Positions 19,951-59,128 of a stretch of 64,000 bases of DNA are shown in pieces. A model generated the notes under the pieces. It was not told the origin of the DNA, searched no databases, and saw only the letters and a list, made by a program, of their open reading frames with translations. The stretch comes from a virus (Duplodnaviria > Caudoviricetes). Position 1 is the stretch's first letter; every line of letters starts with the position of its first letter. Both the position numbers and the translations under genes were made by a program. The stretch covers positions 96,001 through 160,000 of IMG/VR virus record IMGVR_UViG_3300009431_000002. One strand, written 5' to 3'.

Positions 19951-21072
19951 TCAGAACTGGTTGACCTGCGGGTACGTCAGGCCATCCTCGGCACGGTTGT
20001 TCATCGCGCCCAAGTCCTCGATATCGACGGGCTGACGATCGGCGAAGTTCGCGTCCTCCGCGCCCGTCGTGACGGAACCGCGGTAGAGCTCGAGCTTGCG
20101 GACTGCGGCGATGTTGCCGAAGCCCATGCCGATATCTTCCCACGCCTGCCAGAAGATCCGGTTGGCGCGCTTGTCGATGTAGAACTTCGTCTGGTTCAGG
20201 ATGTAGAACCGGCCGAAGAACTCGGGCTTGGTGAAGATGTAGACGTTGCCATCCCGCAGGATGTCCGTCTTGATCGTCCGGATGAAGTTGGTGCCGAGGA
20301 GCATGTTGTACTTGTAGCCGTCGACCACGGTCTCGGACTGGATCTTGTCCCCGAAGTCCTCGACGGTCCACTGCAGCACGTCCTCGAAGTCCGGCTCGGA
20401 CATGAGCATGCGCTCGGGCCGCAGGCGGTTGCGGCTCAGGAGCTTGCGCAGGTTGACGATGTCCGGCCGCAGGATGGGCCGCACCTCGAAGTCGTCCACG
20501 CCACCGAGGGTCAGGGCGTTGAGGCCCTTCACGCGGGACACGCCGACCACGGTGCCGTTGTTGACGTTGGTGCGGTTGAAGGCGACGGTGCCGTTGGTCT
20601 CGAACTGCAGCGCCTCGATGCAGGCCTCCACGTGGAGCAAGAACTCGCGGTCCTCGATCTCCTGGATGTCCTTGGCGCTGTTGTCCTCGATCACCTTCGT
20701 GATCGGCATCTCGTACGCCAGCAGCTCCTGCTCCGTCTTCTCGAACTTCTCCGAGGAGATGGTGAAGAAGGGGATGGCGTACCGCGGCGCGCTGATGTAC
20801 CGCGCGGTCGGCTGGCCCCGGAAGGTCAGCGGCATGGCGCGGGACTGCGGCTCGATGTCCACGATCCGCACGAGCGTGTCGTGGTTCTCGGACCGCTGGC
20901 ACTCGTTGCGGGTGATGGGGGTGGGCGGGACCACCTTGCGCGCGAAGCTGACCTCACGCAGGTGGTCACGGATGAAGGTGCCGCCGTACTCGGCGATCTT
21001 CTCTTTGCCCTCGGCGGTCTCCAACTTGCGGTTGAAGAGCTCGTTGAGGACCTCGGCGGGGGTGCTGGACAT
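19951..21072 (-). CDS. Major capsid protein (HK97 fold), 373 aa
   Basis: Position after protease and scaffold-like genes; size; motifs RDHLREVSFARKVVPP and IEDNSAKDIQEIEDREFL; highly optimised codons. Confidence 0.85.
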   Translation of the reverse strand: MSSTPAEVLNELFNRKLETAEGKEKIAEYGGTFIRDHLREVSFARKVVPPTPITRNECQRSENHDTLVRIVDIEPQSRAMPLTFRGQPTARYISAPRYAIPFFTISSEKFEKTEQELLAYEMPITKVIEDNSAKDIQEIEDREFLLHVEACIEALQFETNGTVAFNRTNVNNGTVVGVSRVKGLNALTLGGVDDFEVRPILRPDIVNLRKLLSRNRLRPERMLMSEPDFEDVLQWTVEDFGDKIQSETVVDGYKYNMLLGTNFIRTIKTDILRDGNVYIFTKPEFFGRFYILNQTKFYIDKRANRIFWQAWEDIGMGFGNIAAVRKLELYRGSVTTGAEDANFADRQPVDIEDLGAMNNRAEDGLTYPQVNQF

Positions 21073-21132: not shown

Positions 21133-21642
21133 CTAGCTGGGCACTCCGACGATGCCGCGGATGCGTCCGTGCACGGCGTCGATGTGCGTCAGGCGTGCGA
21201 CGACCAGCCCGGCACCGGCGCCCACCTGGTCGGCCAGGACGCGGCGGATCACGCCGGCGCCTGCCAGGTCGAAGTCGATGACGGTCAGGGCGTTGTTGGT
21301 GTCGAGGTCGAGGCCGGTGTCGTCGTAGACGTCCGTCTCGAACTCGTAGAAGCTCGGGAGCAGCACGTGCCCCATGCCACCGTTGATGGCCTGGGCGTCG
21401 TAGCGTCCCTCCTCGAGCCAGAAGCAGTACTGCGGCCGCGCGGCCACGTCTGCGGTGGCGTCGTTGTTGTCCCCTCCGCGGCGGAGGTTCCAGTCGTCGT
21501 CGTACTCCAGCCACTCGCCCTCGACGAGCGAGCGCCCGTCCTGGGGCCACAGGGGCCGGTGTCCGGCAGCGTCGCCGGTGCCGGCGACCACACGACGGTC
21601 CCGCGTGGGGAGCGTCTCGTACTCGGTGATCAGTCGAAACAT
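21133..21642 (-). CDS. Putative capsid decoration/stabilising protein
   Basis: 169-aa beta-rich ORF directly upstream of the capsid gene; synteny-based call. Confidence 0.5.
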   Translation of the reverse strand: MFRLITEYETLPTRDRRVVAGTGDAAGHRPLWPQDGRSLVEGEWLEYDDDWNLRRGGDNNDATADVAARPQYCFWLEEGRYDAQAINGGMGHVLLPSFYEFETDVYDDTGLDLDTNNALTVIDFDLAGAGVIRRVLADQVGAGAGLVVARLTHIDAVHGRIRGIVGVPS

Positions 21643-21682: not shown

Positions 21683-22054
21683 CTAGTCCTCGTCCAGGAT
21701 GAAGGCCTCCAGCTGGGTCTTGCCCGCGCCGGCGACCTTCTCTTCGCCGTCGCCCAGCTCGAAGAAGGGGACGTCGCCCGCGGCCATGCCGATGGCTTCC
21801 TCCCTCGTGGAGAGCTTGTCGGGCTCGGACAGGAGCTCGGCCGTCTTGGTGCCGACGTCGTCCTCGTCGATGAGGCCCTTCTGCGCCATCTTGTCCGCGA
21901 GTGCGGCGGCGCGCTTCTCCAGCTTGAGCTGTGCGTTCTCCACCCGGAGCTGCTCGTTCTCGGACTCGAGGTCGCTCGCCCGCTTGGTCAGAACGCGCAA
22001 GGCGCCCGGGACCTGCTTGAAGACGGTGTGTGCCTGCTGCCGGTCGATGGTCAT
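21683..22054 (-). CDS. Small coiled-coil head assembly (scaffold-like) protein
   Basis: Heptad LESENEQLRVENAQLKLEKRAA; located in the capsid operon. Confidence 0.55.
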   Translation of the reverse strand: MTIDRQQAHTVFKQVPGALRVLTKRASDLESENEQLRVENAQLKLEKRAAALADKMAQKGLIDEDDVGTKTAELLSEPDKLSTREEAIGMAAGDVPFFELGDGEEKVAGAGKTQLEAFILDED

Positions 22055-22066
22055 CGTCGGTACCTC

Positions 22067-23767
22067 CTACACCGTCGCCGGGACGTCCGGCGCGGCGGCG
22101 GGGGCCACAGGCTCCCCGGTTCCCTCGCCCTCGGCGCGAGCCGCGGACTCCAGGATGTCTGCGAACTGCTGCTCGGACCGCTCCGTCTGCTGACGGTCGG
22201 CCTCGTCGGGATCCTCCACGTCCGAGGCGGGTGGCACCTCGTCCATGGGGTTGTCGGCGAGCTTCGCCATCGCCTGCTTCAGCGCAGCCTCCTTCTCCGG
22301 GCCGTCGTCACCGGCGAGGACACGTCGGAGGAGCTCACGCGCCGCGTCGGCCTCGATGGTGCCGTCGGACGCGATCTTCGCTCCCGCGGAGTCCACCACG
22401 GGGCCGAGGTTCTCGTGGAGCTTGGAGTCGGTCGCCTTCGACTGGGCCGGCTCGTCCAGGACCTTGCCCATGTCCTTCTTGGGCTCGGCCTTTGCCTCCC
22501 GCTTGGTGTACTGGATGGCGGCGTCGTTGGAGCCGACCATCTTGTCCTGCCCGCGGGTCTTCTTCTCGGGGACGCCCTCGCCCGCCTCGGTGCCCGGGAA
22601 GTCGCCACCGTCCACGGTGGTGCCTCCCTTGCCGGCGGAGGGCTTGGCGCCGGAGTTGTCCTCGGCCAGCTTCCGCAGCACGAAGTCCACGAGGGGGCTC
22701 CGGCCGCGGACGGAGGCCGTGACCTCCTGGCCACCGCCCAGCACGGAGGCGCCGCCGGCGCCGAGCGCGCCGAGGCCGGCCACGCCACCGGCGCCCTTGC
22801 CGACGGCCTTGGCGCCCTCACGGCGGGCCTGCTGCTGGAGCTCCGGGATCTGCCCGGTGATGGCAGCCAGGGCCTCGTCGCCGAAGCCGCGCCGGCCCAT
22901 GTCGCCGGCCATCTCGCCGGCCTCACCGGCCTGCTCCAAGAGCTCGCGGCGGAGGGCCAGGTTCTCCAGCGGGTTGACGGCCTTGACGGCCTTGCCGCCG
23001 GCGCCCTGGATCGCCTGCAGGATCTCGGCTGGGCCGGCCTGCTTGACCATCACGCGGGCGTAGCGTGTGGGGATGCCCTGGGCCTCCAGTGCGGCCTGGG
23101 CCTCCTTGAACACGCCCTCGTCCGGGTAGCCGGCGGTGGGCACGGAGCCGGAGTTGCCGCCCGGCGCCTGGTTCTCGTCGGTCTCCATGGCGGTGGACGA
23201 CGAGCCGGCGGCGAGCTCGGGGCTCTCCAGCGGCGTCTCGTTGGGGATGGTGGTGGTCTTGGCCTTGTCGTGCTTGTAGGGCTGCTCGCCCGCACCACCC
23301 GGAGCATCCTCCTGGGTGTTGGCCATGGCGTTGCTGGGCGCCGGGGACTCCTGGAGCCCCTTGCCCGTGGCGGGCTTCATCGGCGGCGTCAGGTCCGCCG
23401 GCGCGTTGCCGGCGTCCTTGGTGTCGGTCTTGAGGGCCGTCTTCTCGTAGCCCATCAGCTCGGCGACGATGAGGGCCTCGGCGACCTTCTCCTCGTTGGA
23501 GCGGCCGTCGACGATCTCGTCGAGGTGGTCGTTCGCGTACTCCACCGCACCCGCGAGCTTGTCGAAGTACGCGTAGTCGAGCTCCGCGGACTTCTCCTCA
23601 CCCTCGTCCTTCTTGACGAAGGGCGGCACGTCCTTCTTGTCCTTGGGCTTGTCCTCGGCCTCGCCCTCGTCCGCCTCGGCGGTCTTCTGCATCCGCTCGT
23701 GGCCGCGGTGGTAGGCGTCCTTGAGCATCTCGGTGAGCTGGAAGCCGTGGGTGGTGCTTTCGGGCAT
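22067..23767 (-). CDS. K-x-A-rich scaffold/internal head protein, 566 aa
   Basis: QKTAE, EKSAE, EKVAE, EKTAL, VKQAG, RKLAE, AKIAS, AKLAD motifs; disordered composition; no Cys seen. Confidence 0.65.
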   Translation of the reverse strand: MPESTTHGFQLTEMLKDAYHRGHERMQKTAEADEGEAEDKPKDKKDVPPFVKKDEGEEKSAELDYAYFDKLAGAVEYANDHLDEIVDGRSNEEKVAEALIVAELMGYEKTALKTDTKDAGNAPADLTPPMKPATGKGLQESPAPSNAMANTQEDAPGGAGEQPYKHDKAKTTTIPNETPLESPELAAGSSSTAMETDENQAPGGNSGSVPTAGYPDEGVFKEAQAALEAQGIPTRYARVMVKQAGPAEILQAIQGAGGKAVKAVNPLENLALRRELLEQAGEAGEMAGDMGRRGFGDEALAAITGQIPELQQQARREGAKAVGKGAGGVAGLGALGAGGASVLGGGQEVTASVRGRSPLVDFVLRKLAEDNSGAKPSAGKGGTTVDGGDFPGTEAGEGVPEKKTRGQDKMVGSNDAAIQYTKREAKAEPKKDMGKVLDEPAQSKATDSKLHENLGPVVDSAGAKIASDGTIEADAARELLRRVLAGDDGPEKEAALKQAMAKLADNPMDEVPPASDVEDPDEADRQQTERSEQQFADILESAARAEGEGTGEPVAPAAAPDVPATV

Positions 23768-23770
23768 GGT

Positions 23771-24046
23771 TCACCTCACGCTCGGGGGCTGTAGGCCTTT
23801 GCCCATGTCGCCCGCCGGGGTGTTCTTGATGGGGGACTCCAGGCGCATCGGAGGTGCCAGCGACGGCCCCTTCACGCCCTTCACACTGGGGATGGCTCCA
23901 CTACGAGGAGACTGCACGAGCTTGGGCGCCGACGAGGTGGGGGATGTCAGTCCTGGCATCTTCGCACTCAACGCGATCTTCTCCAGCTCGTCGACGAACC
24001 CGGCCACCACTACGGGGTTGGCCGTCTTCGTCAGCTCCTTCAGCAC
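23771..24046 (-). CDS. Small tagged basic protein, 91 aa
   Basis: LTKTANPVVVAGFVDELEKIA at the N-terminus followed by a Pro/Lys/Ser-rich tail. Confidence 0.6.
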   Translation of the reverse strand: MLKELTKTANPVVVAGFVDELEKIALSAKMPGLTSPTSSAPKLVQSPRSGAIPSVKGVKGPSLAPPMRLESPIKNTPAGDMGKGLQPPSVR

Positions 24047-24055
24047 CGCGCTCCT

Positions 24056-24715
24056 CTACTGGAGCAGGTGGCCGTAGCCGTTGGCCTGCAACAGCTGCGC
24101 GGCGGCCTGGTCGATGCGGTCCTGCTGCGAGGGCTGCTCCGGCGCGGCCGCGGTCTTGGCGGTCTCGCAGTCGCCCTTGCAGTCCGCCTTCAGGCACCGG
24201 CACAGCTGGTTGGCGGCGACCTTCTCGGCCAGGAACTCGTTGGCGCGGGCGGTGGCCAGCTCGACGAGCAGCGGGTCGGCCTGCGGCTGCTCGGGCTGGG
24301 CCTGCGCGGCCGCGGCGGTCTTCTGGATGACGTCCAGCTCGTTGACGAAGGCGTGGGCCATCTGCCGGCCGAGCAGATCCGCCTCGGCCATCTCGGCCGC
24401 GGCCTTCTTCTCCTCGTCGTTCATCGGCGGGCCCTCGTCCTTCTTCTCGTCCTTCTTCTCCTCGTCCTTCTCCTCCTTCTTGGGCGGGAAGGGGGGAGCG
24501 GGCGGCGCGTCGGCCGGGGCCTCCTCGGCCGCTACCTTCTTGAGGTAGTGCTGGAAGGTGGCCTGGACCTGGGCGTCGGACATCTGCGAGATGTCGTAGC
24601 CGTCGGCCGAGGCCAGCTTGTCCAGCGCGTCGTAGACGGCCTGCTGGTCGACCTGCTCCTGGTTGCGGGCGTGGCCGTAGGCCGCTGCGAGGACCGGGTT
24701 CATCTGGTCGGGCAT
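24056..24715 (-). CDS. K-x-A-rich scaffold/internal head protein, 219 aa
   Basis: DKLAS, KKVAA, AFVNELDVIQKTAA, EKVAA, AKTAA; AGGAA RBS. Confidence 0.65.
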   Translation of the reverse strand: MPDQMNPVLAAAYGHARNQEQVDQQAVYDALDKLASADGYDISQMSDAQVQATFQHYLKKVAAEEAPADAPPAPPFPPKKEEKDEEKKDEKKDEGPPMNDEEKKAAAEMAEADLLGRQMAHAFVNELDVIQKTAAAAQAQPEQPQADPLLVELATARANEFLAEKVAANQLCRCLKADCKGDCETAKTAAAPEQPSQQDRIDQAAAQLLQANGYGHLLQ

Positions 24716-24728
24716 TTCCTCTTGCTCC

Positions 24729-26420
24729 TCATGCTGGCTGCGCTGAGGCTAGCTTCACCGCCAGCTGTGGGTTGCTCTGAACGATTCGTTCTCCAAGCTC
24801 CGGGCCCAGCCTCTTTCCCGCATCCCAGTGTGCACGGACGAGGTACACGACGGGGCCTGACGAGAACAATCCTGCCAGCGGCCCACCCTCAATGGCAACA
24901 GGCTTTCGCCCGAAAAGCTCAGCGAGGGGGTCCAACTGGTCGGTTGGTAGCCCAAAGTGTGGTTGCGCAGTTTCCCGTGCCAGCAGGGAGAGCAGAGCTC
25001 TCCTGTACCCGTTGTAGGCCCGAGAGATCTCACTCAACAGCGGGTTGTCCGCGTAGTTCGGGGCCGAGGGCTTGGGCACTTCCATGCGGATGATGACGGT
25101 CAGCCTCTTCTTCAGGGGGCCGCCGAACATCGAACGGCCGCCGACCAGTGGGGCCAGCAGCTCCTGCAGGTCTGGCGCGTGGCCAGAGAGGGACGGGCAC
25201 TCGCCCATGTCCATGCACGGCTTGAATACGCTGCCGGCGGAGTCAAGCTCGTCGGCCAGCGGCTTGTTGCCGCAGCGGACCAAGGTGATGCGCTGGAACT
25301 CACGGGGCGTCAGCACGATCCCCATGCGGCCAGCAGTCCCCAGGGCGGTCCCGAGGTCCGACGACACTGTGTCGTTTGGCGCCGCCATCCGGTCGAGGAC
25401 CTTGGAGGGCAAGGGCTTCTCGGTCTTCTCCAACAGGGGGACGGCGTGTCCGGCGGCCTGGCTGGGCGGCAGCTCCTTGATGATGTCGGCGAGCTTCTGC
25501 TGACTGGCCGTCTTCGGGCTGTCCGCCACCATCTCCTGGAGCGCCTCCGCGTACGCGCCCGCGGTCTTCTCGTACCCGAGATCCGCAGCGCGCTCTGCTG
25601 ACGGCGCGGAGAGGGTGCCGGGCTTGACCACGACGAACGTCCTCTTGCCTGACGCCAGCAGTGCCATCACCTTGGCAGTCCTGTCCGCTCCGATCAAGAC
25701 GTACGAGATGTCGAAGAACCGCGGGTGCGGGTTCCACACGAAGATCTGCTGGCCGTCCGGCAGGATCATGTTGGGCCGGTACCGCGGGTCCTTGCGGCTC
25801 ATGTGCTCGCAGTAGTCAGCCCGAGTCTTGGACTTGTGGCCGCAGATCGAGCACACGTCGTACTTGACCCGGCAGCCCATGCTCACCGGCAAGTACTCGC
25901 CCCGCTCCAGGCGCTCGATGATGTCGTAGCCGCCGGCCTGGCGGCACAGGCCGTGGTCCAGCTCCTGGACCAGCTCGACCCGCTTCATCAGGTCGTTCCA
26001 CACCGCCAGCACGACGTCGCCGTACTTCGGGTGGTTGTGCGGCGGGTAGGGCTTGTTCTTGTGGTGCCGGAACGCGTTGGCCAGGTAGAAGGTCGTGTAC
26101 CCGTAGGGCGCGTGCGCGGCGAGACGCCGGCGGCCCTCGATGTCCCAGGGCGGGACGTTGCGCCAGCCCGGCGGCTCCAGCTTCAGGGAGTCGATGCTGA
26201 ACCCGTCGGCGTTGATGTTGGGGCCCCAGATCTCTGTGGCTCCCAGCGCGTTGACCAGTGCGTAGGTCTTGTCGGGCTTCGGCTCCAGCTTGGCGATGAA
26301 CTGCTGCACCTCGTCGTGCAGGGGCGCCGCGGTCTTCACGAGACCGGGCTCACCTGGAGTGACGAGCTGGGAGTAGACGCCCCGCTCGTCCTCCCCCTGG
26401 TAGTGCAGCAGCTTGATCAT
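24729..26420 (-). CDS. Prohead maturation protease (HK97/herpesvirus assemblin-like) with C-terminal extension
   Basis: AFRHH and PVSMGC motifs (candidate His and Ser catalytic residues), CSICGH...YCEH zinc motif; upstream of the capsid gene. Confidence 0.8.
   Translation of the reverse strand: MIKLLHYQGEDERGVYSQLVTPGEPGLVKTAAPLHDEVQQFIAKLEPKPDKTYALVNALGATEIWGPNINADGFSIDSLKLEPPGWRNVPPWDIEGRRRLAAHAPYGYTTFYLANAFRHHKNKPYPPHNHPKYGDVVLAVWNDLMKRVELVQELDHGLCRQAGGYDIIERLERGEYLPVSMGCRVKYDVCSICGHKSKTRADYCEHMSRKDPRYRPNMILPDGQQIFVWNPHPRFFDISYVLIGADRTAKVMALLASGKRTFVVVKPGTLSAPSAERAADLGYEKTAGAYAEALQEMVADSPKTASQQKLADIIKELPPSQAAGHAVPLLEKTEKPLPSKVLDRMAAPNDTVSSDLGTALGTAGRMGIVLTPREFQRITLVRCGNKPLADELDSAGSVFKPCMDMGECPSLSGHAPDLQELLAPLVGGRSMFGGPLKKRLTVIIRMEVPKPSAPNYADNPLLSEISRAYNGYRRALLSLLARETAQPHFGLPTDQLDPLAELFGRKPVAIEGGPLAGLFSSGPVVYLVRAHWDAGKRLGPELGERIVQSNPQLAVKLASAQPA
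25361..25375. repeat. Palindrome copy 3 (ACGACACTGTGTCGT)
   Basis: Inside the protease CDS (NDTVSS). Confidence 0.85.
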
Positions 26421-26424
26421 GCCA

Positions 26425-27099
26425 TCAGCCAGAGACGGCCTTCATCGCCCCCGTGAACGCGGCTCCCGCGCCGCCCGCGGCCTGCGTGCCGACGGGCCGT
26501 CCCATGTCCTTGCGAGCCCGGATCAGCTCGCTGACGGTCTTGTGGTCGATCAGCTCGGCGTCGGAGACCCGCTTGACGAAGGTGCCGGCGACCAGTGGGT
26601 CCGCGGCCATCTCCGGTGCGAAGCGGTGCATCGTGTTCCAGGCGCGGTTGACCATGGTGCCGTCGTACTGGTCGGCGTCGGCGAGTTCCGGGTGGACCTC
26701 GACCATCTTCTTGAAGCGGTGCTTCTTCATCGCCTCCTGGACGACGACGTCCGCGGCGTTGACGCCGGCCTGCGCCGCGGCACCCGCGGCGACACCGCCG
26801 GCGGTGAGGGCGCCGCCGAGCCCACCGACCATCAGCGCGGCCTCATGCGGCTTCTTCCCGCTGAGCAGTCCCAGTAGCCCCTTCGCCGGAGGCGCCTGCC
26901 CGATCAGCTCGCCGATCTCGGCGAGGGTCTCCGGCGTGACGCCGCGCATCTGCGGGAAGCGGCTTTCGACGGCCCGGAGGGTCGCCGCTGGGATCGCCGC
27001 GACCTTCTCCATCGCAGCGCTCACCAGGCTGTCAGCCTGCTCCTCGGACAGCTGGCCGCTGGACACCAGCTGGTCGATGTGGTCGGTCGCGGCGCTCAT
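26425..27099 (-). CDS. Glycine-zipper head-module protein, 224 aa
   Basis: MEKVAA motif; hydrophobic AALMVGGLGGALTAGGVAAGAAA; no Cys seen. Confidence 0.65.
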   Translation of the reverse strand: MSAATDHIDQLVSSGQLSEEQADSLVSAAMEKVAAIPAATLRAVESRFPQMRGVTPETLAEIGELIGQAPPAKGLLGLLSGKKPHEAALMVGGLGGALTAGGVAAGAAAQAGVNAADVVVQEAMKKHRFKKMVEVHPELADADQYDGTMVNRAWNTMHRFAPEMAADPLVAGTFVKRVSDAELIDHKTVSELIRARKDMGRPVGTQAAGGAGAAFTGAMKAVSG

Positions 27100-27108
27100 G
27101 GGGCCTCC

Positions 27109-28017
27109 CTACTGGCGGACGCGCTTGTCGACGTCCTCGTACTGGCGCTCGAGTTCGGCCTTCGCAGCCTTCACCACGCCGAGGCGCTGCTGCAGCAGGT
27201 CGAGGTGGCGGGTCGCCTTGGCGAGCTGGCTGTCCAGGTCGACCTCCCGGCTCTGCGCCGCGGCCACCTTCTCGGCGTCGAAGTGGATCTCGAGGTCGGG
27301 GTCGTTCCGCAGCGCCGACTTCATGCCGACGATGATGTGCGGGAGCATGCTGGCCATCTTCTCGGGACCGGAGACGAACTCCACCACGGCGCCGACGTCC
27401 TCGAGCGGCACACCCTCCTGCAGGGCCTGCTGCATCACGGCGTCGAACTGCTCGGCTGCCTCCTTGTAGAAGGTCCGGACCTCCGCCTCCTCCGCGCTGA
27501 CGTGCTCGATGGCGCCGCGGAGCTGCTGCCACTGCCGGACGTCGGCGGAGGCGTCCACGTGCTCCGATGCCACCTTCTCCTGCTCGACGCCGAAGGCATC
27601 GGCGAGGACGTCGTCGGCGATGTCCTCGTGCAGTCCCTCCCGGAAGTCCTGGACCTGGACGCCGTAGGCCTGCGCGGCCGAGAGCTTCACGGCGGGGCGC
27701 GACTGCCCCTCCAGGTGCGCGAGGATCACGACGGGGTCGCCGTAGTCGAACACCACGTTCTTGACGGCGCCGGCCTCCTTCTGGAAGAGCTGGTCGTAGG
27801 CCTCCTGGTTGGCGGCCTCGGTGATCCGGTGGACGTGCTGGGGCGTCAGGTCGGGGTTGGCCTGGGCGATCTTGAGAACGGCGTCGTTCAGTGAGGTACC
27901 CTGGTTCAGGAACTCCGACGCGGCCTCCTTGCCCAGCAGCTTCAGCTTGGTCGCTTCGACCCCGGAGGTCTTGGTCTTGGTCGACGTGAGGAACGCTTCG
28001 AGAGCGGTGTCGGGCAT
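27109..28017 (-). CDS. K-x-A-rich head-module protein, 302 aa (first gene of the capsid operon)
   Basis: LKIAQ, QKEAG, VKLSA, EKVAS, YKEAA, EKMAS, EKVAA; GAGGTG RBS. Confidence 0.7.
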   Translation of the reverse strand: MPDTALEAFLTSTKTKTSGVEATKLKLLGKEAASEFLNQGTSLNDAVLKIAQANPDLTPQHVHRITEAANQEAYDQLFQKEAGAVKNVVFDYGDPVVILAHLEGQSRPAVKLSAAQAYGVQVQDFREGLHEDIADDVLADAFGVEQEKVASEHVDASADVRQWQQLRGAIEHVSAEEAEVRTFYKEAAEQFDAVMQQALQEGVPLEDVGAVVEFVSGPEKMASMLPHIIVGMKSALRNDPDLEIHFDAEKVAAAQSREVDLDSQLAKATRHLDLLQQRLGVVKAAKAELERQYEDVDKRVRQ

Positions 28018-41284: not shown

Positions 41285-42194
41285 CGTCCTCTCCCAAGGT
41301 GTCAGCGACATCCGCGGTGTCGCTGTACGTTCCTCCCGCCTCCGGGTCGGCCAGCTGATGCAGGGACACCGGCGGCTGTTTGTCATTCTGCACGCGCATC
41401 CGCTCGAAGTCCTTGAGCAGACGGCGCAGTTCATCCTCGCTCGTGGCCACGCGCTTGTCGATGGCCAATGCCGTGTTGGCCAGCCCGGTGAGCATCGTGA
41501 TCTTGTCCCGGCTCAACGACACTGTGTCGTCGACCGTCACGAAGTTGATGTACAGGCGACGCCGCATGTCCTGCAGCATCTCCTGCCCCTCGAGGCCGGC
41601 CCGCAGGCCCATGCGGTGGAGCGTGGCCTCTCGGCCAGACCGCAGCGCGACCTCGTGGTCCTCCTGCACCATCGGCGGCAGGTCCTGGGACAGGATGGTC
41701 TCGGACCACTCCTCCAGGCTCATGGCCCGGACGTTCCAGTAGTAGTGCGCGAACGACTGGACGCCGTCTGTGGTGATCCGTAGACCCTCTGCCCGACCCA
41801 CCTCGCGTGCGATGACGTGGAAGGGCACCTGCCCCAGCAGTCCGACCTCTACTCGCCGGCGGACCCGGAAGTCCAGGAGGATCGTGTTGGCCTCCTCGAC
41901 GGCGCGCGTCGGGTGGTGCAGCGAGAAGATGCGGTGCCGTCGCAGGTACCGTGCGGTCCGGATGTTCCTGCGGTCCCGGGGCAGGAAGGGGTTCGGGATG
42001 TCCTTGAGCAGCTGGGCACGGAGGCGGCTGACGTACTGCTCCTCGGCCTCGGGCAGCCGATACATCTCCAGGTGCGTCTTCACGAACTCGTAGCTGCACT
42101 TCTCCGGATGCCCCTGCGTCAGCAGGAAGAGGATGAACCGTTCGCTCGGATGAGCACGCTGCTCCCGAGCGGGTGGGAGCAGATCCATCGTCAT
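41250..42194 (-). CDS. Hypothetical protein, 314 aa (helical; possible packaging accessory/terminase small subunit)
   Basis: ATGA coupling; globular composition without the K-x-A signature. Functional guess is weak. Confidence 0.55.
   Translation of the reverse strand: MTMDLLPPAREQRAHPSERFILFLLTQGHPEKCSYEFVKTHLEMYRLPEAEEQYVSRLRAQLLKDIPNPFLPRDRRNIRTARYLRRHRIFSLHHPTRAVEEANTILLDFRVRRRVEVGLLGQVPFHVIAREVGRAEGLRITTDGVQSFAHYYWNVRAMSLEEWSETILSQDLPPMVQEDHEVALRSGREATLHRMGLRAGLEGQEMLQDMRRRLYINFVTVDDTVSLSRDKITMLTGLANTALAIDKRVATSEDELRRLLKDFERMRVQNDKQPPVSLHQLADPEAGGTYSDTADVADTLGEDDDGSEDIDEDA
41516..41530. repeat. Palindrome copy 5 (ACGACACTGTGTCGT)
   Basis: Inside 41250-42194 (VDDTVSL). Confidence 0.85.
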
Positions 42195-44335
42195 GCGTGT
42201 GACAGCAGCTTCAGCCCGTTGACCACCGACTCCAGAGAGAAGAGCGCCGTCCGCACCGACGACTCGTTGATGATCTTCTGGCCGATGCGGACGGCCAGCA
42301 GGAGGTCCGCGAGACGGTTCACGGAGTCCTCGAGGTACGGCATGTAGCTGACGAACACCGACATCGTCTCGGGCGACAGGAAGCCCAGCGACAGCACGGC
42401 GTCCACGGTGTCGGCGTCGCCGTCGGCGAGGTCACCGGCCTCCTTGACCAGCAGCACGGCCTTGGGCAGGTCCTTGATCCTCTCGGCCGCGGTCTTGACC
42501 GCCTCCTCGCGGACCTCGGACAGCGGGACGATGGGGCGGAGCCCACCGAGCTCAGCGTGTCCGACCTCCACCGACTCCGCCAGCTTCTCCTTGGCCACCC
42601 GCGGGTGGACACCGGCGCAGACCATGAGGAACTCGGCGCCAGCCCGGTCCACGAACTGGTAGTCCTGCTGCGCCAGCTTGTGGAAGGCGCGGCCCTTGAG
42701 GCTGTACTCGGGGCCGTGGCACATCAGCGTGCCCACCTGCGCGACACCGCGGGCCTCGGACTCCTTGTTGAATCCCTCCGGCGCGTCCACCAGCTTGGTC
42801 ATCTGTCCCTCGAGGGGGCAGAAGCGGTAGTGATCGGGCACCGCGAACAGGCCGTCGCCCAGGAACTGGATCTTCTGGATGTTGGGGGCGAACGAGAACC
42901 GGACGAACTCCCCGATGTCCGTGATGGCCTGGTACGCCTGCATCCCACCCTGCTGCTGGTCCAGCTGCACTTGGAAGGGCACCGTGGCCTTGGCGTTGCC
43001 GCCCTCCACGCAGTAGAGGAAGCCGTGCCCGCGCACGGGCCCGTGCGGGAGGTTGCCGCCCTTGCCGACGCGGATGCCGGCGACGCCGGGCTGCACCGAG
43101 AACTCCGAGCCGTTGGTGAACAGGCTCATCGGCACCAGGTCCTCGCCCATGCTGGGCTGGAACTGCATCAAGCCGGGGAACACCCAACCGATGAGGTGCC
43201 GGCCGTCGCAGGTGGCGACGCGCCACTCGCCGAACTCGTCGACCAGTCGGATCTCCTCGTCCTCGGAGTCCGGTTCCATCGCCGCGGCGTCGACGATGTC
43301 GGACTCGCCCGGGGCCAGATCGCCAGCGCCCGGCGCGATACCCTCGGCCTCGGCCGCCCCCATCTCCTGCTGTTGGGGAGCGAACGCCTCGGGGTTGGCC
43401 CACTTCGCCATCACCGTGCCGCTGGCGGTCTTGGTGAGCTGGACCACCGTGGGCTTGATGCCCGTGGCAAACTGGCTCCACATGTCGGCCGCGGCCACCT
43501 TGTCCAGCGTGCTGGCACCGGCGATGTACCCCAGCATCTCGGCCGCGGTCTCCGACGACCGGAAGGCGCGGCGCAGGGCGGGGTCGTCGGCGATGGCGGC
43601 GGCGACCTTCTCGACCGTGGCGGCGTCCATCGACGGCGCGAGCGCACGCAGCAAAGGCACGCCAGCCTTCTTCTCGTGCAGCTTCTTCTTGGCCTCGAGG
43701 GTGGAGTCCCAGGACTCGCCGGACGCCTCCTCCAGCTTCTTGAGCTGGTCCTCGTCGAACTTCTTGGCCAGGAAGCTGTCGACCACACCGGCGGCCTTCT
43801 CGACCCCCAGCATCTCGGCGAGCGCCTCCTCATGGGCGGAGCCGGTCACCGTCATGCCGCCGAAGTACCCGCCGTACTGGCCGCCGCCGAAGGGCGGGGC
43901 GAGGTCGCTGGCCATGTACTTCTGCGCCGGCGGCGTGCCGGGGCCGTCGAAGGTCTCGGCGCGGAACATGTGCTGACGGAAGCGAGCCTCCGTCAGCGGC
44001 CACGTCTTCTCCCCCTGCATGAACAGGTCGAACGGCGCCAGCTGGAACTTGTGGATCACGATGGGGATGCGGGAGTGCTTGACCGACTTCCCCAGCAGCT
44101 CCTCCCCCGGCGACCTGTCGGTCTTGTTCTTGACCTCGACGTAGCCGATGGCCGTGCCCTGCTCGGGCACCGAACGGGGGATGTTGACGGAGACGTCGTA
44201 CTCCGCCAGGAACGGAAGCTGGCGGTACGCCTCCTGCAGGAGCTGCGTCGGCCAGTGGTCGGCGTTGCTGACCATGCGGGCCGAGGAGACCATCGCGGTC
44301 TTGGTCTTGGGGGATTCGTCGAGGAAGAGGTCCAT
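42191..44335 (-). CDS. K-x-A-rich head-module protein, 714 aa
   Basis: TKTAM, EKAAG, KKAGV, EKVAA, DKVAA, TKTAS, HKLAQ, VKTAA, VKEAG. Confidence 0.7.
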   Translation of the reverse strand: MDLFLDESPKTKTAMVSSARMVSNADHWPTQLLQEAYRQLPFLAEYDVSVNIPRSVPEQGTAIGYVEVKNKTDRSPGEELLGKSVKHSRIPIVIHKFQLAPFDLFMQGEKTWPLTEARFRQHMFRAETFDGPGTPPAQKYMASDLAPPFGGGQYGGYFGGMTVTGSAHEEALAEMLGVEKAAGVVDSFLAKKFDEDQLKKLEEASGESWDSTLEAKKKLHEKKAGVPLLRALAPSMDAATVEKVAAAIADDPALRRAFRSSETAAEMLGYIAGASTLDKVAAADMWSQFATGIKPTVVQLTKTASGTVMAKWANPEAFAPQQQEMGAAEAEGIAPGAGDLAPGESDIVDAAAMEPDSEDEEIRLVDEFGEWRVATCDGRHLIGWVFPGLMQFQPSMGEDLVPMSLFTNGSEFSVQPGVAGIRVGKGGNLPHGPVRGHGFLYCVEGGNAKATVPFQVQLDQQQGGMQAYQAITDIGEFVRFSFAPNIQKIQFLGDGLFAVPDHYRFCPLEGQMTKLVDAPEGFNKESEARGVAQVGTLMCHGPEYSLKGRAFHKLAQQDYQFVDRAGAEFLMVCAGVHPRVAKEKLAESVEVGHAELGGLRPIVPLSEVREEAVKTAAERIKDLPKAVLLVKEAGDLADGDADTVDAVLSLGFLSPETMSVFVSYMPYLEDSVNRLADLLLAVRIGQKIINESSVRTALFSLESVVNGLKLLSHA

Positions 44336-45438: not shown

Positions 45439-45861
45439 TCAACGACGGAGCAGCGTCGCGCCCCCGAGGCCCAACGTGCCGAGACCAGCCATGCCTCCGG
45501 CGCCGGCCAGCGCACCGCCGCCGACGTCACGGGCGAGGTCGCCGCCCTCCTGGACCTGCTTGCCCCAGCCCTCGAGGCCCTCGCCCCAGCCGCGGCGTGT
45601 CTTGCCGGCGTCCAGGGCCTCCGTGCTCATCTTGCCCTTGGGCTGGGCCTTCACGGCGCGGGCCATGGCGTCGTCGCCCGACTGGGTGAGCTTGCCGCCC
45701 AGCCACTTGGCGCCGCGGCCGATGAGCTTGCCGGCCTGCTCGATGAGCGCGAGCTTCTCGAGGTCGCTCAGGCCACGGGCGTCTGCCACCTTCTCGAGCT
45801 CGTCGAGGAACCCGCCGACGAAGGCGTGCTCGCATGCGGCCGCGTGCTTCTCCATATCCAT
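45439..45861 (-). CDS. Tagged small membrane-anchored protein, 140 aa
   Basis: MEKHAA...GGFLDELEKVA...LEKLA; C-terminal GGGALAGAGGMAGLGTLGLGGATLL. Confidence 0.7.
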   Translation of the reverse strand: MDMEKHAAACEHAFVGGFLDELEKVADARGLSDLEKLALIEQAGKLIGRGAKWLGGKLTQSGDDAMARAVKAQPKGKMSTEALDAGKTRRGWGEGLEGWGKQVQEGGDLARDVGGGALAGAGGMAGLGTLGLGGATLLRR

Positions 45862-57178: not shown

Positions 57179-58041
57179 GGCCGCATCATCTCCATCTGTT
57201 GGGCCAGCTGGCGCCGGCGCAGCTTCATGTACTCCCGCGCCCGCAACACTCTGGCCACGCATCGATCCACCTGGGTCTCCCCCAGATCTACTTGGTCCAG
57301 GCCCTTACCGGCAACTGATTCGTACCGCTCCTTGACCGGCCGGTAGTCGTTGATGAAGTAGCGCTCGACCTTCCCGTGCCCCAGCTTCTTCGCCGGCGAG
57401 TCCGCCGTGGGCTTGCCATCGAGGTTGTGCTCACCTCGGAAGCGCTTGGCGCAGACGTCACACGTGTCGTCCTCGAGGTCGTCCTCGTCCTCGTTGCCGC
57501 AGCTGGTACACCTGTACATCGGCCGCGCGGCCAGCCGCTGTGCGAAGTCCAACGGCGGCGGGAGGAACCACACGCCGTCCGACAGCGCGGCCGCGGCGAC
57601 GAACCGGGCCACCTCGTCCGAGAACTTCCGGCCGTCCACACTCTCCATCATGTCCACGCCGGCCGCCAGCGCGTCGAAGGAGGGCTGCTGGATGATGTCG
57701 AACCTCGGGATGTTGTTGTTCAGCGCCTGGATGGTGGGGACGAAGGCGTCCCAGCTGATCCAGCAGGCGTCCGTGGCGTGCAGCGTCTTCACCGCCATGA
57801 TCTTGTTGCGGTTCAGCTCGCTGATCTCCAGCTGTCCACCGCCGAGCAGAGCCTGCCCGAAGTACCGCTTGATGCCGTCCCACACAGCCTCCGGCACCCA
57901 CTCCCACCAGTCCTTCCCGAAGGCGGTGACGATGACGGCGTCGAGGACCAAGGGGTGTGCGTCGTGGTGGCGAAAGAGCGTGGCTGGCCGAATGTCGTCC
58001 GGCTGGGTGGTCAAAGCGGTGGCCGGGGACGCATCAGCCAT
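57160..58041 (-). CDS. Hypothetical virion-module protein with CxxC...CxxC motif
   Basis: RCTSCG...TCDVC; overlaps neighbours in the operon. Confidence 0.7.
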   Translation of the reverse strand: MADASPATALTTQPDDIRPATLFRHHDAHPLVLDAVIVTAFGKDWWEWVPEAVWDGIKRYFGQALLGGGQLEISELNRNKIMAVKTLHATDACWISWDAFVPTIQALNNNIPRFDIIQQPSFDALAAGVDMMESVDGRKFSDEVARFVAAAALSDGVWFLPPPLDFAQRLAARPMYRCTSCGNEDEDDLEDDTCDVCAKRFRGEHNLDGKPTADSPAKKLGHGKVERYFINDYRPVKERYESVAGKGLDQVDLGETQVDRCVARVLRAREYMKLRRRQLAQQMEMMRPWLLAP

Positions 58042-59128
58042 GCGCAATCGTCTGCATGCCGACAGGGCTGTGGCCCGTGTCCGAGGCCAGCCGGGCGAGC
58101 GTGACCTTGTTGATGTCGGGCAGCGACTTGAACACGGAGACGGGGTCCTTGGCGAACTGCGTGGCGAAGTCGTCGCCGAAGTGGTCCTTGAGCAGCTGCC
58201 GATTGGCAGACAGGAGCCGCAGGTCGGCCTCGGTCACGCGCTCGGCGCCCTCCACCCACACGAAGTCCTCGGCGGTCTTCTCGAAGCAGGTGGAGACGGG
58301 GTCCAGCACGTGCTGGTCCCAGAGGTGGTCGAGGCCCGTCTGCTCGTCGAACAGCGTCAGGGCCGTGGCGAGCTTCTCGGGGTTGGCGCGTTCGTCGCCG
58401 GCGGACTTCACGAGGACGTCGAGCACCGGGTGCATGCTGGCCGGCACGTACTGGCGCCGCGCCTCGATGTACATACCGGCGTCGGGAGCGAGCGCGGTGC
58501 CGGCGTACTTCTCGATGTCGTGCGATGGCACGGGGATCCCCAGGTCGGCGGCGCGGGACGCCAGCTTCGTGGCGAACTCGCGGCGGTCGTTGGGATGGAA
58601 GCGCAGCATGTTCTCCCGGAAGAAGCCCATGCCGGCGGCGACCTCCTCGTAGGAGCGCAGCGGGTACTTGCCGAGGGCCACGCAGTCCGCTTCGGCCAGC
58701 TTCTCCTGCTCCATCACCGGCGCAGTGGCCAGCACGGAGTCCACGACCTCGGCCGTCTTCACGCCATCGGCGGTGAGGGCCAGCCCGATCTTCACCAGAT
58801 CCAGCGGGACCTGCATCTGGTGGGCCTCGTGGGCGTCGATCAGGTTGTTCACGACCTGCAGCTGGGCCTCCTTGGACAGGTGGCCCCGCTGGGACAGGAA
58901 GTAATGGGCGGACATCCATGTATTGCCGGGGTCGATGGTGGCATACTTGCAGAACAGGTTGCCGTCGACGGACGCGACGAGCGCGAAGTTCTTGGCCGGC
59001 AGAGCCTGACGCTCCTCGGGAGACAGGAAGGCTGCCGTCTTGGCCATGTCGGGGAGTTGGTCCTGGGGGACGGTACTGGCGAGCAGCGCCGCCTGGTCGT
59101 CATAGACGTCGAGGATCAATCCAGACAT
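58034..59128 (-). CDS. K-x-A-rich head-module protein, 364 aa (first gene of the portal operon)
   Basis: AKTAA, VKTAE, EKLAE, VKSAG, EKLAT, EKTAE; AGGAG RBS. Confidence 0.7.
   Translation of the reverse strand: MSGLILDVYDDQAALLASTVPQDQLPDMAKTAAFLSPEERQALPAKNFALVASVDGNLFCKYATIDPGNTWMSAHYFLSQRGHLSKEAQLQVVNNLIDAHEAHQMQVPLDLVKIGLALTADGVKTAEVVDSVLATAPVMEQEKLAEADCVALGKYPLRSYEEVAAGMGFFRENMLRFHPNDRREFATKLASRAADLGIPVPSHDIEKYAGTALAPDAGMYIEARRQYVPASMHPVLDVLVKSAGDERANPEKLATALTLFDEQTGLDHLWDQHVLDPVSTCFEKTAEDFVWVEGAERVTEADLRLLSANRQLLKDHFGDDFATQFAKDPVSVFKSLPDINKVTLARLASDTGHSPVGMQTIAHG

What the first reader, a model, noticed from the sequence alone, without database searches (positions are those of the whole stretch)
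24729..26420. K-x-A sites bracket the protease domain like herpesvirus assemblin release and maturation sites
Seen: LVKTAA (about 26325-26343) precedes the catalytic region, YEKTAG and PKTAS (about 25503-25575) follow it, and VKLASAQPA ends the protein. K-x-A-(A/S/E/G) recurs five to nine times each in 22067-23767, 24056-24715, 27109-28017, 42191-44335 and 58034-59128, and EKIAE is near the capsid protein N-terminus. Established: assemblin cleaves (V/L)-x-A|S at R and M sites, whereas T4 gp21 and phiKZ gp175 cleave after Glu. Inference: an Ala-P1, Lys-P3 protease that processes most of the head proteome. Isolated K-x-A also occurs in tail and RNAP proteins, so enrichment needs a statistical test.
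Basis: partly seen in the sequence, partly recalled or inferred. Interest (0 to 1): 0.72.

Follow-up and report, generated by a model that had tools for sequence, protein, structure and literature searches.

The report
Lys-x-Ala cleavage code, phage head protease
An uncultured 202-kb phage and its many relatives write the short motif Lys-x-Ala-(Ser/Ala/Gly/Glu) far more often than chance into their head-assembly proteins and on both sides of their head protease, so this is very probably the protease's cutting signal, one not described for any phage protease in the papers I could search, though no experiment has tested it.

Summary
In detail: every listed site is at its coordinates. After composition-preserving shuffles, K-x-A-[ASEG] is enriched (p 2e-5 to 5e-4) in only six of about 190 proteins: 42 sites against 7.4 expected. 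The rest of the genome shows none (z 0.7).

K-x-A ranks first of about 1,400 spaced dipeptides in head modules chosen by synteny in Salmonella phage Arash and three metagenomic relatives. It ranks third in Vibrio phage D69. The same method recovers T4's known I-x-E at rank 1. K-x-A is not enriched in SPN3US.

The extended logo is [L/M/I/F]-E-K-[V/T/I]-A-[S/A/G/E]-A.

ORF 24729-26420 has a T4 gp21/assemblin-fold domain (Z 8.7), with invariant H119/H120 and S180. It matches no Pfam protease model. It belongs to an unnamed family of at least 2,639 clusters. K-x-A lies in the N-terminal leader in 182 of 184 members and in the linker after the catalytic domain in 223 of 228.

So a Lys-P3/Ala-P1 cleavage code is well supported as a selected signal. 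The scissile bond is inferred by analogy only. The C-terminal "M-like" site is weak, and "most of the head proteome" is unproven.

The scan had already noted this motif, and a related N-terminal tag, on an overlapping window of the same genome.

The parts
24729..26420 (-). Prohead protease precursor, 563 aa (P0001): leader 1-31, catalytic domain about 33-245, disordered linker, helical C-terminal domain 323-483, tail
   Evidence: AF2 pLDDT is high for 33-243 and 323-483. It is below 50 for 1-31, 243-267, 282-322 and 484-518.
25686..26324 (-). Catalytic domain (residues 33-245) with the T4 gp21/herpesvirus assemblin fold
   Evidence: VIA Z 8.7, rmsd 3.1, 134 of 164 residues of 5jbl_B (T4 gp21); then VZV (6.5), PRV (6.2) and HSV-1 (5.6) proteases; the top Foldseek hits are the same proteins. 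Atlas neighbours are Peptidase_S77/S78/S80 clusters.
25881..25883 (-). Ser180 in V-S-M-G, the proposed nucleophile
   Evidence: Invariant in 40 homologues. The only hhalign stretch against T4 gp21 puts S180 on S140 (not significant alone). Inteins of relatives P0003 and P0131 start at about residue 180-183, beside S-M-G.
26061..26066 (-). His119-His120, invariant; candidate general base, about 60 residues before Ser180
   Evidence: One search lists H119 and H120 as invariant columns. Which of the two acts, and the third triad member, are not assigned.
25803..25853 (-). C-x2-C ... C-x-H zinc-knuckle-like insert inside the catalytic domain (residues 190-206)
   Evidence: Many relatives carry a 60-70-residue insertion between the two halves of this element.
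26328..26336 (-). K29-T-A31: predicted leader-removal site just before the folded domain
   Evidence: K29 and A31 are at least 90% conserved. 182 of 184 family members have K-x-A in the leader against 29% expected. The site lies in a low-pLDDT stretch. It is conserved in Arash gp222, D69 0270 and phage G gp19.
25488..25568 (-). Linker sites K285-T-A-G, K303-T-A-S and K309-L-A-D after the catalytic domain: predicted release (R-like) sites
   Evidence: 223 of 228 family members have K-x-A-[SAGE] within 120 residues after the catalytic domain, against 33% expected, about two sites each. E-K-[T/V]-A-S is conserved in an otherwise variable linker. pLDDT is below 50 for 282-322.
24972..25454 (-). 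Conserved helical C-terminal domain (residues 323-483); proposed scaffold or anchoring part
   Evidence: pTM 0.79 when folded alone; best PDB Z is only 3.3; the only BFVD match is a homologue from an uncultured phage. The function is inferred.
24747..24755 (-). K556-L-A558, followed by S-A-Q-P-A and the stop: doubtful distal site
   Evidence: the next residue is Phe in P0002 and Tyr in P0004, and the site is absent outside this subclade.
27109..28017 (-). 302-aa scaffold-like protein; 6 K-x-A-[ASEG] sites spread over its whole length
   Evidence: 6 against 0.85 expected, p 8e-5; 5 sites pass a matrix trained on other genomes (0.18 expected); predicted fragments of 30-68 residues.
26425..27099 (-). 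224-aa protein with a single site, M-E-K32-V-A-A
   Evidence: Not enriched, so substrate status is open.
24056..24715 (-). 219-aa scaffold-like protein; 7 sites
   Evidence: 7 against 1.15 expected, p 2e-5; predicted fragments of 22-43 residues.
23771..24046 (-). 91-aa protein with L-T-K-T-A-N and the tag F-V-D-E-L-E-K-I-A
   Evidence: A 91-residue gene sits at the same place in relative L007.
22067..23767 (-). 566-aa Ala/Glu/Gly-rich protein; 16 K-x-A, 10 with [ASEG], clustered at both ends
   Evidence: 10 against 2.73 expected, p 1.6e-4..
21683..22054 (-). 123-aa coiled-coil-like protein; 4 sites
   Evidence: 4 against 0.45 expected, p 4.8e-4.
20992..21000 (-). K25-I-A27 in the major capsid protein (gene 19951-21072): predicted removal of a 27-residue N-terminal peptide
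   Evidence: a K-x-A lies within two residues of this position in all seven aligned capsid proteins, down to 28% identity (Arash, D69). The capsid protein is phrog_2522 and matches the Arash major capsid protein.
42191..44335 (-). 714-aa orphan protein; 8 sites flanking a site-free core of about 280 residues: predicted internal head protein
   Evidence: 8 against 1.58 expected, p 6e-5; 7 against 0.23; 38 of 39 homologues are enriched (358 against 60.7) at conserved relative positions.
45439..45861 (-). 140-aa protein with three high-scoring sites near its N-terminus, including F-L-D-E-L-E-K-V-A
   Evidence: 3 against 0.08 expected..
58034..59128 (-). 364-aa orphan protein; 10 K-x-A, 7 with [ASEG]
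   Evidence: 7 against 0.66 expected; no shuffle of 50,000 reached it; Poisson p 6e-6.

Best explanation
ORF 24729-26420 encodes the phage's only recognisable prohead (head-maturation) serine protease. Its catalytic domain has the T4 gp21/herpesvirus assemblin fold, with Ser180 as nucleophile and His119 or His120 as base. It belongs to a large, unnamed sequence family.

The enzyme recognises an extended strand of the form hydrophobic-Glu-Lys-(Val/Thr/Ile)-Ala followed by Ser/Ala/Gly/Glu. It most probably cuts after the Ala (Lys at P3, Ala at P1, a small residue at P1').

Inside the procapsid it is predicted to do four things:
- remove its own 31-residue leader and cut the linker after residues 287 and 305, freeing the catalytic domain from the helical C-terminal domain;
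- chop the scaffold-like proteins encoded between it and the capsid gene, and just upstream, into peptides of about 20-70 residues that can leave the shell;
- trim about 27 residues from the capsid protein;
- release mature cores of internal proteins such as the 714-aa and 364-aa proteins, in some cases removing an N-terminal F-x-D-E-L-x-K-x-A address tag.

Shown here: the motif's enrichment, its specificity for head proteins, its conservation, the fold, and the invariant Ser and His residues. Inferred: proteolysis itself, the exact bond, and the fate of the fragments.
For: Enrichment:
- After composition control, six proteins have p 2e-5 to 5e-4 and the rest of the genome has z 0.7.
- In an unbiased scan of about 1,400 spaced dipeptides, K-x-A ranks first in head modules defined by synteny alone in Arash (z 5.9) and in metagenomic loci L007, L008 and L009 (z 4.7-6.2). 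It ranks third in D69 and eighth in L010.

Method controls:
- The T4 head module returns the known I-x-E at rank 1, z 4.5 (motif cited from PMC12991175).
- SPN3US substrates show no K-x-A signal, z 0.9 and -0.5.

Transfer and conservation:
- A weight matrix trained only on relatives whose protease is 43% identical or less finds 45 sites in this genome against 9.6 expected, concentrated in the same proteins.
- Flanking positions carry information: L/M/I/F at -2, Glu at -1, V/T/I between K and A, Ser 3.8-fold enriched after Ala (302 sites).
- K-x-A brackets the catalytic domain in 182 of 184 and 223 of 228 family members.
- It sits at the capsid protein N-terminus in 7 of 7.
- It is enriched in 38 of 39 homologues of the 714-aa protein.

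The enzyme:
- Fold: Z 8.7 to T4 gp21, then herpesvirus proteases.
- S180, H119 and H120 are invariant.
- Inteins are inserted next to S180 in relatives.
- In the protease, four of the five sites lie in low-confidence linkers of the model, and the fifth (K556) lies just before the low-confidence C-terminal tail.
- No S77, S78, ClpP or S49 protease is found elsewhere in the genome, which CheckV rates 100% complete.

Analogy for the bond: the known relatives use P3-x-P1 motifs, namely I/L-x-E (T4, PMC12991175), S/A/G-x-E (phiKZ, PMC13282480) and A-x-E with Ser at P1' (SPN3US, PMC10052503). Herpesvirus (V/L)-x-A then Ser is from my own knowledge.
Against: - There are no proteomic or biochemical data for this phage or any relative. 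The Arash paper reports only whole-protein coverage and never mentions a protease.
- The scissile bond is inferred by analogy only.
- Sequence searches do not place the protein in any curated protease family.
- The alignment to T4 gp21 is not significant on its own, and the third catalytic residue is unassigned.
- The C-terminal site is poorly conserved.
- The head assignment of the 714-aa and 364-aa proteins rests on the motif and gene neighbourhood alone. Neither has a homologue in cultured phages.
- T4's helical head proteins show a mild K-x-A excess (z 2.1), so a small part of the signal could be a general property of Lys/Ala-rich helices.
Confidence: 0.62

Rival explanations
1. K-x-A-(small) is the protease's recognition motif, but the cut falls at another bond. 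It could fall after Lys, as HK97 cuts its capsid protein after Lys103, or one residue further on, after the Ser/Ala/Gly.
For: Nothing here fixes the bond. Information extends on both sides of the K-x-A core. The tag variant ending K-I-G shows only that the position after x must be small.
Against: Characterised enzymes of this fold put their two most constrained residues at P3 and P1 (PMC12991175, PMC13282480, PMC10052503). SPN3US and herpesvirus enzymes prefer Ser at P1', and Ser is the most enriched residue directly after the Ala (3.8-fold). A beta-branched residue between K and A suits a P2 in an extended strand.
Confidence: 0.17
2. The motif is a short binding or targeting signal rather than a cleavage site. 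It could be a repeated contact for the inner capsid surface or for the protease's C-terminal domain, recruiting scaffold and cargo into the procapsid without being cut.
For: A subset of sites lies within a longer N-terminal tag, F-x-D-E-L-x-K-x-A/G, on unrelated proteins (earlier notes e1-5362239 and e1-5362262). That resembles a capsid-targeting sequence. Scaffold proteins often bind coat proteins multivalently.
Against: Binding does not explain why the sites bracket the catalytic domain in nearly all family members or sit in disordered linkers. It does not explain the site at the capsid protein's own N-terminus or the demand for small residues at two adjacent positions. In T4 the targeting sequence ends in the cleavage motif, so the two roles are not exclusive.
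Confidence: 0.1
3. The enrichment is a by-product of composition and secondary structure in Lys/Ala/Glu-rich helical proteins, or of recently duplicated DNA, and has no function.
For: Shuffles preserve composition but not helical periodicity. T4 head proteins show a mild excess (z 2.1).
Against: - K-x-A ranks first of about 1,400 patterns in five independent genomes, counting this one, whose protein set was picked by the motif.
- It is absent from SPN3US head proteins.
- Twelve different residues fill the middle position in this genome.
- Site positions are conserved at 28-30% identity.
- Flanking positions carry information.
Confidence: 0.05

Closest known systems
Phage T4 prohead protease gp21 (MEROPS S77; PDB 5JBL)
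   Same: Best structural match (Z 8.7). It is a zymogen that processes itself. It degrades scaffold proteins, trims the capsid protein and removes N-terminal targeting peptides from internal proteins. Its motif has the P3-x-P1 form, and the same enrichment scan recovers it.
   Different: T4 cuts after Glu in I/L-x-E (PMC12991175). The Pfam S77 model does not match this protein. This enzyme carries a zinc-knuckle-like insert, a 31-residue leader and a 240-residue helical C-terminal domain.
phiKZ gp175 and SPN3US gp245 prohead proteases of jumbo phages
   Same: They process many head and internal proteins extensively, with several motif copies inside propeptides. The virions also carry an RNA polymerase.
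   Different: Their motif is S/A/G-x-E or A-x-E with the cut after Glu (PMC13282480, PMC10052503). K-x-A is not enriched in SPN3US substrates. There is no detectable sequence relationship.
Herpesvirus assemblin precursor (pUL26 / HCMV pUL80a; MEROPS S21)
   Same: Same fold (Z 4.3-6.5 for VZV, PRV, HSV, HCMV, EBV and KSHV proteases). An N-terminal protease is fused through a linker to a C-terminal assembly domain and released by self-cleavage at an R site (PMC4498786). From my own knowledge, its cut lies between Ala and Ser, with a constrained P3.
   Different: P3 is Val/Leu, not Lys, and there is no N-terminal leader. The triad is Ser-His-His, whereas the third residue here is unassigned. The M-site analogue here is weak. 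No conserved nested scaffold gene was found.
HK97 gp4 family (Peptidase_S78) and lambda C/Nu3
   Same: Same superfamily by predicted structure (TM 0.55-0.57 to S78 clusters). The gene lies between the packaging genes and the capsid gene. The protease is joined to a scaffold-like C-terminal part.
   Different: The S78 model does not match. From my own knowledge, HK97 cuts its capsid protein after Lys103 and no simple consensus has been described.
Salmonella phage Arash gp222, Vibrio phage D69 0270 and Bacillus phage G gp19
   Same: True homologues (28-33% identity over the catalytic domain), with the same gene order and the same K-x-A sites before and after the catalytic domain. Arash gp220-gp225 were found in virions (PMC10585845).
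   Different: Arash and D69 annotate the gene only as 'structural' or 'hypothetical'. Phage G gp19 is called a head maturation protease (bioRxiv 10.1101/2024.12.16.628780) with no motif given. Enrichment in phage G's head module is weaker (z 2.8), and its capsid protein has no K-x-A.

Membership tests
Assemblin/T4 gp21-fold prohead serine proteases (superfamily holding S21, S77, S78, S80) | Characteristic beta-barrel protease fold | tested here: met
   Z 8.7, rmsd 3.1, 134 of 164 residues of T4 gp21 (5jbl_B), then six herpesvirus proteases at Z 4.3-6.5. Atlas structure rows for HK97-family proteases at TM 0.55-0.57. Unrelated MCE-domain barrels also score Z 5-6, so only the top match stands clear.
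Assemblin/T4 gp21-fold prohead serine proteases | Invariant nucleophilic Ser, with a His about 50-60 residues upstream | tested here: met
   S180, H119 and H120 are invariant in 40 sequences; the only hhalign stretch sets S180 on T4 gp21 S140 (probability low on its own); inteins are inserted beside S180. The third triad residue is not assigned.
Assemblin/T4 gp21-fold prohead serine proteases | Gene lies in the head module next to the scaffold and major capsid genes | tested here: met
   the capsid gene is 3.7 kb downstream and the large terminase 3.4 kb upstream. The same order holds in Arash, D69, phage G and four metagenomic loci.
Assemblin/T4 gp21-fold prohead serine proteases | Proteolytic activity and self-processing | not testable with these tools
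   Needs expression of wild type against S180A, or virion proteomics.
Pfam Peptidase_S77 / Peptidase_S78 / Peptidase_S49 / CLP_protease (sequence families) | Match to the family HMM above its cut-off | tested here: not met
   no Pfam family at E<=0.1; no match in six frames of the whole genome; no NCBIfam. Only weak PHROG hits, such as phrog_18299 'head maturation protease' at E 2e-4.
Herpesvirus assemblin precursor architecture (pUL26-like) | Protease domain released from a C-terminal assembly domain at a site in the linker (R site) | tested here: inconclusive
   A candidate site is present and conserved: 223 of 228 members have K-x-A-[SAGE] in the linker, which is disordered in the model. 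Cleavage itself is untested.
Herpesvirus assemblin precursor architecture (pUL26-like) | Maturation (M) site near the C-terminus that frees the scaffold from the capsid protein | tested here: inconclusive
   K556-L-A-S lies five residues from the end, but the next residue is Phe or Tyr in two close relatives (P0002, P0004). The family's conserved distal site (K509 column) is K-P-V-A here.
Herpesvirus assemblin precursor architecture (pUL26-like) | Nested in-frame gene that expresses the scaffold part alone (UL26.5; lambda Nu3) | tested here: inconclusive
   an in-frame ATG at Met299 has GGAGG about 11 nt upstream, but Met299 is not conserved in relatives. No expression data.
T4-type capsid targeting sequence removed by the prohead protease | Shared N-terminal peptide on unrelated head proteins that ends in the protease motif | tested here: inconclusive
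   F-x-[D/E]-E-L-E-K-x-[A/G] lies 12-16 residues from the nearest plausible start codon in four otherwise different proteins. Targeting and removal are untested.

The most novel reading that the evidence does not exclude
A very large, unnamed family of assemblin-fold prohead proteases (at least 2,639 clusters at 50% identity, spanning Arash-like and D69-like phages, phage G and many uncultured phages of about 200 kb) shares one specificity that I found in no paper on phage proteases. The cut falls after Ala in hydrophobic-Glu-Lys-x-Ala followed by Ser/Ala/Gly. This is the same Ala-Ser scissile pair as in herpesvirus assemblin. Together with the F-x-D-E-L-x-K-x-A tag, it would form a readable code that predicts from sequence alone which proteins enter the capsid and where they are trimmed.
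Probability: 0.5. Interest if true: 0.7.

Novelty: new variant of a known kind. Interest (0 to 1): 0.62.

Why it matters
Prohead proteases decide which proteins stay in a phage head. Cleavage motifs are known by experiment for only a few of them: T4, phiKZ and SPN3US after Glu, and herpesviruses after Ala.

- A sequence-readable Lys-x-Ala code would allow mature head proteomes, scaffolds and injected cargo to be predicted for thousands of uncultured large phages and for the cultured phage Arash.
- It would give a name and function to a family that Pfam and NCBIfam lack.
- It would supply a second, phage-side example of an Ala-then-small-residue specificity in the assemblin fold. That bears on how specificity evolved between phage and herpesvirus enzymes.
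- Some bacterial CBASS sensors are triggered by cleavage of a bait loop by phage prohead proteases (PMC12991175). Knowing this motif would make it possible to look for host loops that mimic it.

Tried and rejected
- Pfam, NCBIfam and PDB sequence searches of the protease and of a 40-sequence profile gave nothing useful.
- hhalign against T4 gp21 gave one 19-residue stretch at probability 0.3. I used it only as a pointer to Ser180.
- Foldseek on the whole 563-residue model gave weak E-values, 0.09 at best. VIA-align on the same hits gave the usable Z-scores.
- The C-terminal domain folded alone found no solved fold: best Z 3.3 in pdb_via_wide, and only a homologue in BFVD.
- The Arash paper and its supplements hold protein sequences and whole-protein coverage, but no peptide-level data that could show neo-N-termini.
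- The phage G capsid paper (PMC7316594) is not held.
- Searches for a published Lys-x-Ala or Ala-P1 phage protease motif found none. That covers only the open-access library.
- tblastn of the 714-aa and 364-aa proteins against cultured phages found nothing.
- The SPN3US control showed that even a validated motif (A-x-E) can be only mildly enriched, z 1.5-2.5. Lack of enrichment in a protein therefore does not exclude it as a substrate.
- I did not send a complex-prediction job, because enzyme-substrate pairs are outside what that test resolves.
- My gene calls are crude (longest ORF with high GC3). A few are spurious, for example 23721-24077(+) in place of the real 23771-24046(-), and some N-termini are uncertain.
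Full report
**Setting.** The window is bases 96,001-160,000 of a single 201,921-bp contig of about 68% G+C. IMG/VR classes it as a virus record, and CheckV rates it 100% complete. ORF 24729-26420 on the minus strand encodes 563 residues (P0001). It lies between the large terminase gene (29817-31586) and the major capsid gene (19951-21072; phrog_2522, and a match to the Arash capsid protein). The only cultured relatives are distant. They are Vibrio phages D69, D181 and D148 (33% identity over residues 26-318), Salmonella phage Arash (31%) and Bacillus phage G gp19 (28%). Gene order around the protease is the same in all of them and in four metagenomic contigs.

**The observation.** I shuffled each of about 190 crudely called proteins of the whole genome, keeping its composition. 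K-x-A-[ASEG] reached p<=0.001 only in 21683-22054, 22067-23767, 24056-24715, 27109-28017, 42191-44335 and 58034-59128. With 50,000 shuffles the observed and expected counts are 4/0.45, 10/2.73, 7/1.15, 6/0.85, 8/1.58 and 7/0.66, with p from below 2e-5 to 5e-4. The protease has 4/0.92 (p 0.012), and K-T-A alone is 3 against 0.11. All other proteins together have 194 K-x-A against 184 expected, and the 2,048-residue RNA polymerase has 11 against 13.

**Is K-x-A the right pattern?** I scored all residue pairs at spacings 0-3 (about 1,400 testable patterns) against shuffles.
- In the window's enriched set, K-x-A is first (63 against 23.5, z 8.7). That set was chosen by the motif itself.
- Head modules picked only by synteny avoid that circularity. 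K-x-A is first in Arash (50 against 23.8, z 5.9) and third in D69 (z 5.7). It is first in metagenomic loci L007, L008 and L009 (z 4.7, 6.2, 5.5) and eighth in L010. Control genes from the same loci give z -0.5 to 2.7.
- As a positive control, the same scan on T4 gp20, 67, 68, 21, 22, 23 and 24 returns I-x-E at rank 1 (z 4.5) and L-x-E at rank 10. These are the known gp21 motifs (PMC12991175).
- As a negative control, SPN3US head proteins, whose protease cuts after A-x-E (PMC10052503), show K-x-A at z 0.9 and -0.5.

**Extended motif and transfer.** Over 302 sites in nine genomes the flanks carry information. L/M/I/F sits two residues before Lys (3-3.7-fold enriched) and Glu directly before it (3.9-fold). 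V/T/I lies between Lys and Ala. Ser (3.8-fold), then Glu, Ala and Gly at lower enrichment, follow the Ala, and Ala comes next. I trained a weight matrix on Arash, D69, L008, L009 and L010 only. Applied to this genome, it finds 45 sites against 9.6 expected.

**Conservation.**
- In a 40-sequence alignment of the protease family, K29 and A31 are at least 90% conserved. E-K-[T/V]-A-S recurs in the otherwise variable linker after the catalytic domain.
- Across about 260 family members, 182 of 184 have K-x-A in the leader (29% expected). 223 of 228 have K-x-A-[SAGE] within 120 residues after the catalytic domain (33% expected), about two sites each.
- All seven aligned capsid proteins, down to 28% identity, have a K-x-A within two residues of K25-I-A27.
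- Of 39 homologues of the 714-residue protein, 38 are enriched (358 sites against 60.7). The sites sit at conserved relative positions around a site-free core.

Such maintenance at 27-50% identity indicates selection on the motif.

**The enzyme.**
- No Pfam, NCBIfam or PDB sequence match exists. PHROG hits are weak, for example phrog_18299 'head maturation protease' at E 2e-4.
- An AlphaFold2 model built on 40 homologues is confident for residues 33-243 and 323-483. It is disordered for 1-31, 243-267, 282-322 and 484-518.
- Residues 45-244 align to T4 gp21 with Z 8.7 (rmsd 3.1, 134 of 164 residues). VZV, PRV, HSV, HCMV, EBV and KSHV proteases follow. Atlas neighbours are S77, S78 and S80 clusters.
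- H119, H120 and S180 (in V-S-M-G) are invariant. The only hhalign stretch against T4 gp21 puts S180 on gp21 S140.
- In two relatives an intein begins at about residue 180-183, directly at or beside S-M-G. Inteins often sit in conserved active-site regions (general knowledge).
- A C-x2-C...C-x-H element (residues 190-206) is inserted in the domain.
- No S77, S78, S49 or ClpP gene exists elsewhere in the genome, so this is the only candidate head protease.
- The family is large: 2,639 cluster representatives at E<=1e-3, and 512 at E<=1e-30.
- The C-terminal domain is helical and confidently predicted (pTM 0.79), but has no solved structural relative.

**Mechanism.** Four of the protease's five K-x-A sites fall in low-confidence linkers of the model, and the fifth (K556) lies just before the low-confidence C-terminal tail. 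That suits self-processing, in which the leader is removed and the catalytic domain is released from the C-terminal domain. This parallels the R site of herpesvirus pUL26 (PMC4498786) and the two-ended self-trimming of T4 gp21 (from my own knowledge). If every K-x-A-[ASEG] is cut, the proteins at 27109-28017, 24056-24715 and 21683-22054 fall into pieces of 15-68 residues. That is scaffold-like behaviour, as with T4 gp22. The 714-residue protein would keep a 282-residue core.

I place the cut after Ala for three reasons, all by analogy.
- The characterised relatives constrain P3 and P1 (T4, phiKZ, SPN3US and, from my own knowledge, herpesvirus).
- Ser is preferred at P1' in SPN3US and herpesviruses, and here directly after Ala.
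- Two adjacent small residues suit a small S1/S1' pair.

No data here fix the bond.

The terminal K556-L-A-S would remove five residues and is followed by Phe or Tyr in two close relatives (P0002, P0004). The family's conserved distal site (K509 column) reads K-P-V-A in this phage. The portal candidate 54242-56239 (weak portal PHROG hits), the RNA polymerase and the 169-residue neighbour of the capsid gene are not enriched. 'Most of the head proteome' is therefore unproven.

**Relation to earlier notes of this scan.** An N-terminal tag, F-x-D-E-L-x-K-I-A/G, was followed up as a probable capsid-targeting peptide (e1-5362239, e1-5362262). With a strict pattern I find four such tags 12-16 residues from the nearest plausible start codon. 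They end in K-x-A/G, so they are a long form of the same signal. This fits the T4 model, in which the targeting peptide is removed at the protease motif.

**Literature.** The Arash paper does not mention a protease or cleavage. A phage G preprint calls gp19 a head maturation protease without giving a motif. A 2026 jumbo-phage review cites only the S/A/G-x-E motif. Searches for a Lys-x-Ala or Ala-P1 phage protease found nothing. This covers open-access papers only.

**Verdict.** The feature is real, strong and conserved. It is best read as the recognition and cleavage code of a new sequence family of assemblin-fold head proteases. It is a new variant of a known kind, awaiting a simple proteomic or biochemical test.

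Noticed in passing
relatives P0003 and P0131 (protease homologues), insertion at the residue aligned to window 25872-25883: Hint/LAGLIDADG inteins interrupt the protease gene at about residue 180-183, directly at or beside the S-M-G active-site motif. Other relatives (P0068, P0093) also carry intein domains.
   Followed up: partly
relatives P0017, P0039, P0042, P0131; window 39075-40052 (-): Many homologues fuse extra domains (InPase PF18823, DUF6321, DUF5661) behind the protease domain. They look like cargo to be released by the linker sites. In this phage the InPase domain sits on a separate 325-aa protein (E 1e-35).
   Followed up: partly
window 21133-21642 (-): The 169-aa protein next to the capsid gene, in the position of a decoration protein, contains no lysine at all, so it cannot carry the motif. 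Several other small ORFs are also Lys-free, so the meaning is unclear.
   Followed up: no
window 25524-25545 (-): An in-frame ATG (Met299) inside the protease gene has GGAGG about 11 nt upstream. It could give a nested product holding only the C-terminal domain, like lambda Nu3 or herpesvirus UL26.5, but the Met is not conserved in relatives.
   Followed up: partly
window 25803-25853 (-): A C-x2-C...C-x-H zinc-knuckle-like element is inserted in the protease fold after the catalytic Ser. In many relatives a 60-70-residue insertion lies between its two halves, and in some the first two Cys are replaced by Ser.
   Followed up: no
window 42191-44335 (-) and homologues P0263-P0300: This orphan 714-aa protein family has motif clusters at relative positions 0.02, 0.2-0.48 and 0.75-0.95 and a site-free core at 0.5-0.75. 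That suggests a conserved mature core flanked by disposable segments. No cultured phage has a homologue.
   Followed up: partly
window 23721-24077 (+) versus 23771-24046 (-): Two overlapping ORFs on opposite strands both have high GC3. The minus-strand 91-aa ORF is the real gene, since it is conserved in size and place in L007 and carries the tag. This is a warning for automatic gene calling in this GC-rich genome.
   Followed up: yes
window 54242-56239 (-): This 665-aa protein has only weak PHROG portal hits (E about 1e-3). It is the likeliest portal but lies 26 kb from the protease-capsid cluster, beside the motif-rich 364-aa protein.
   Followed up: no
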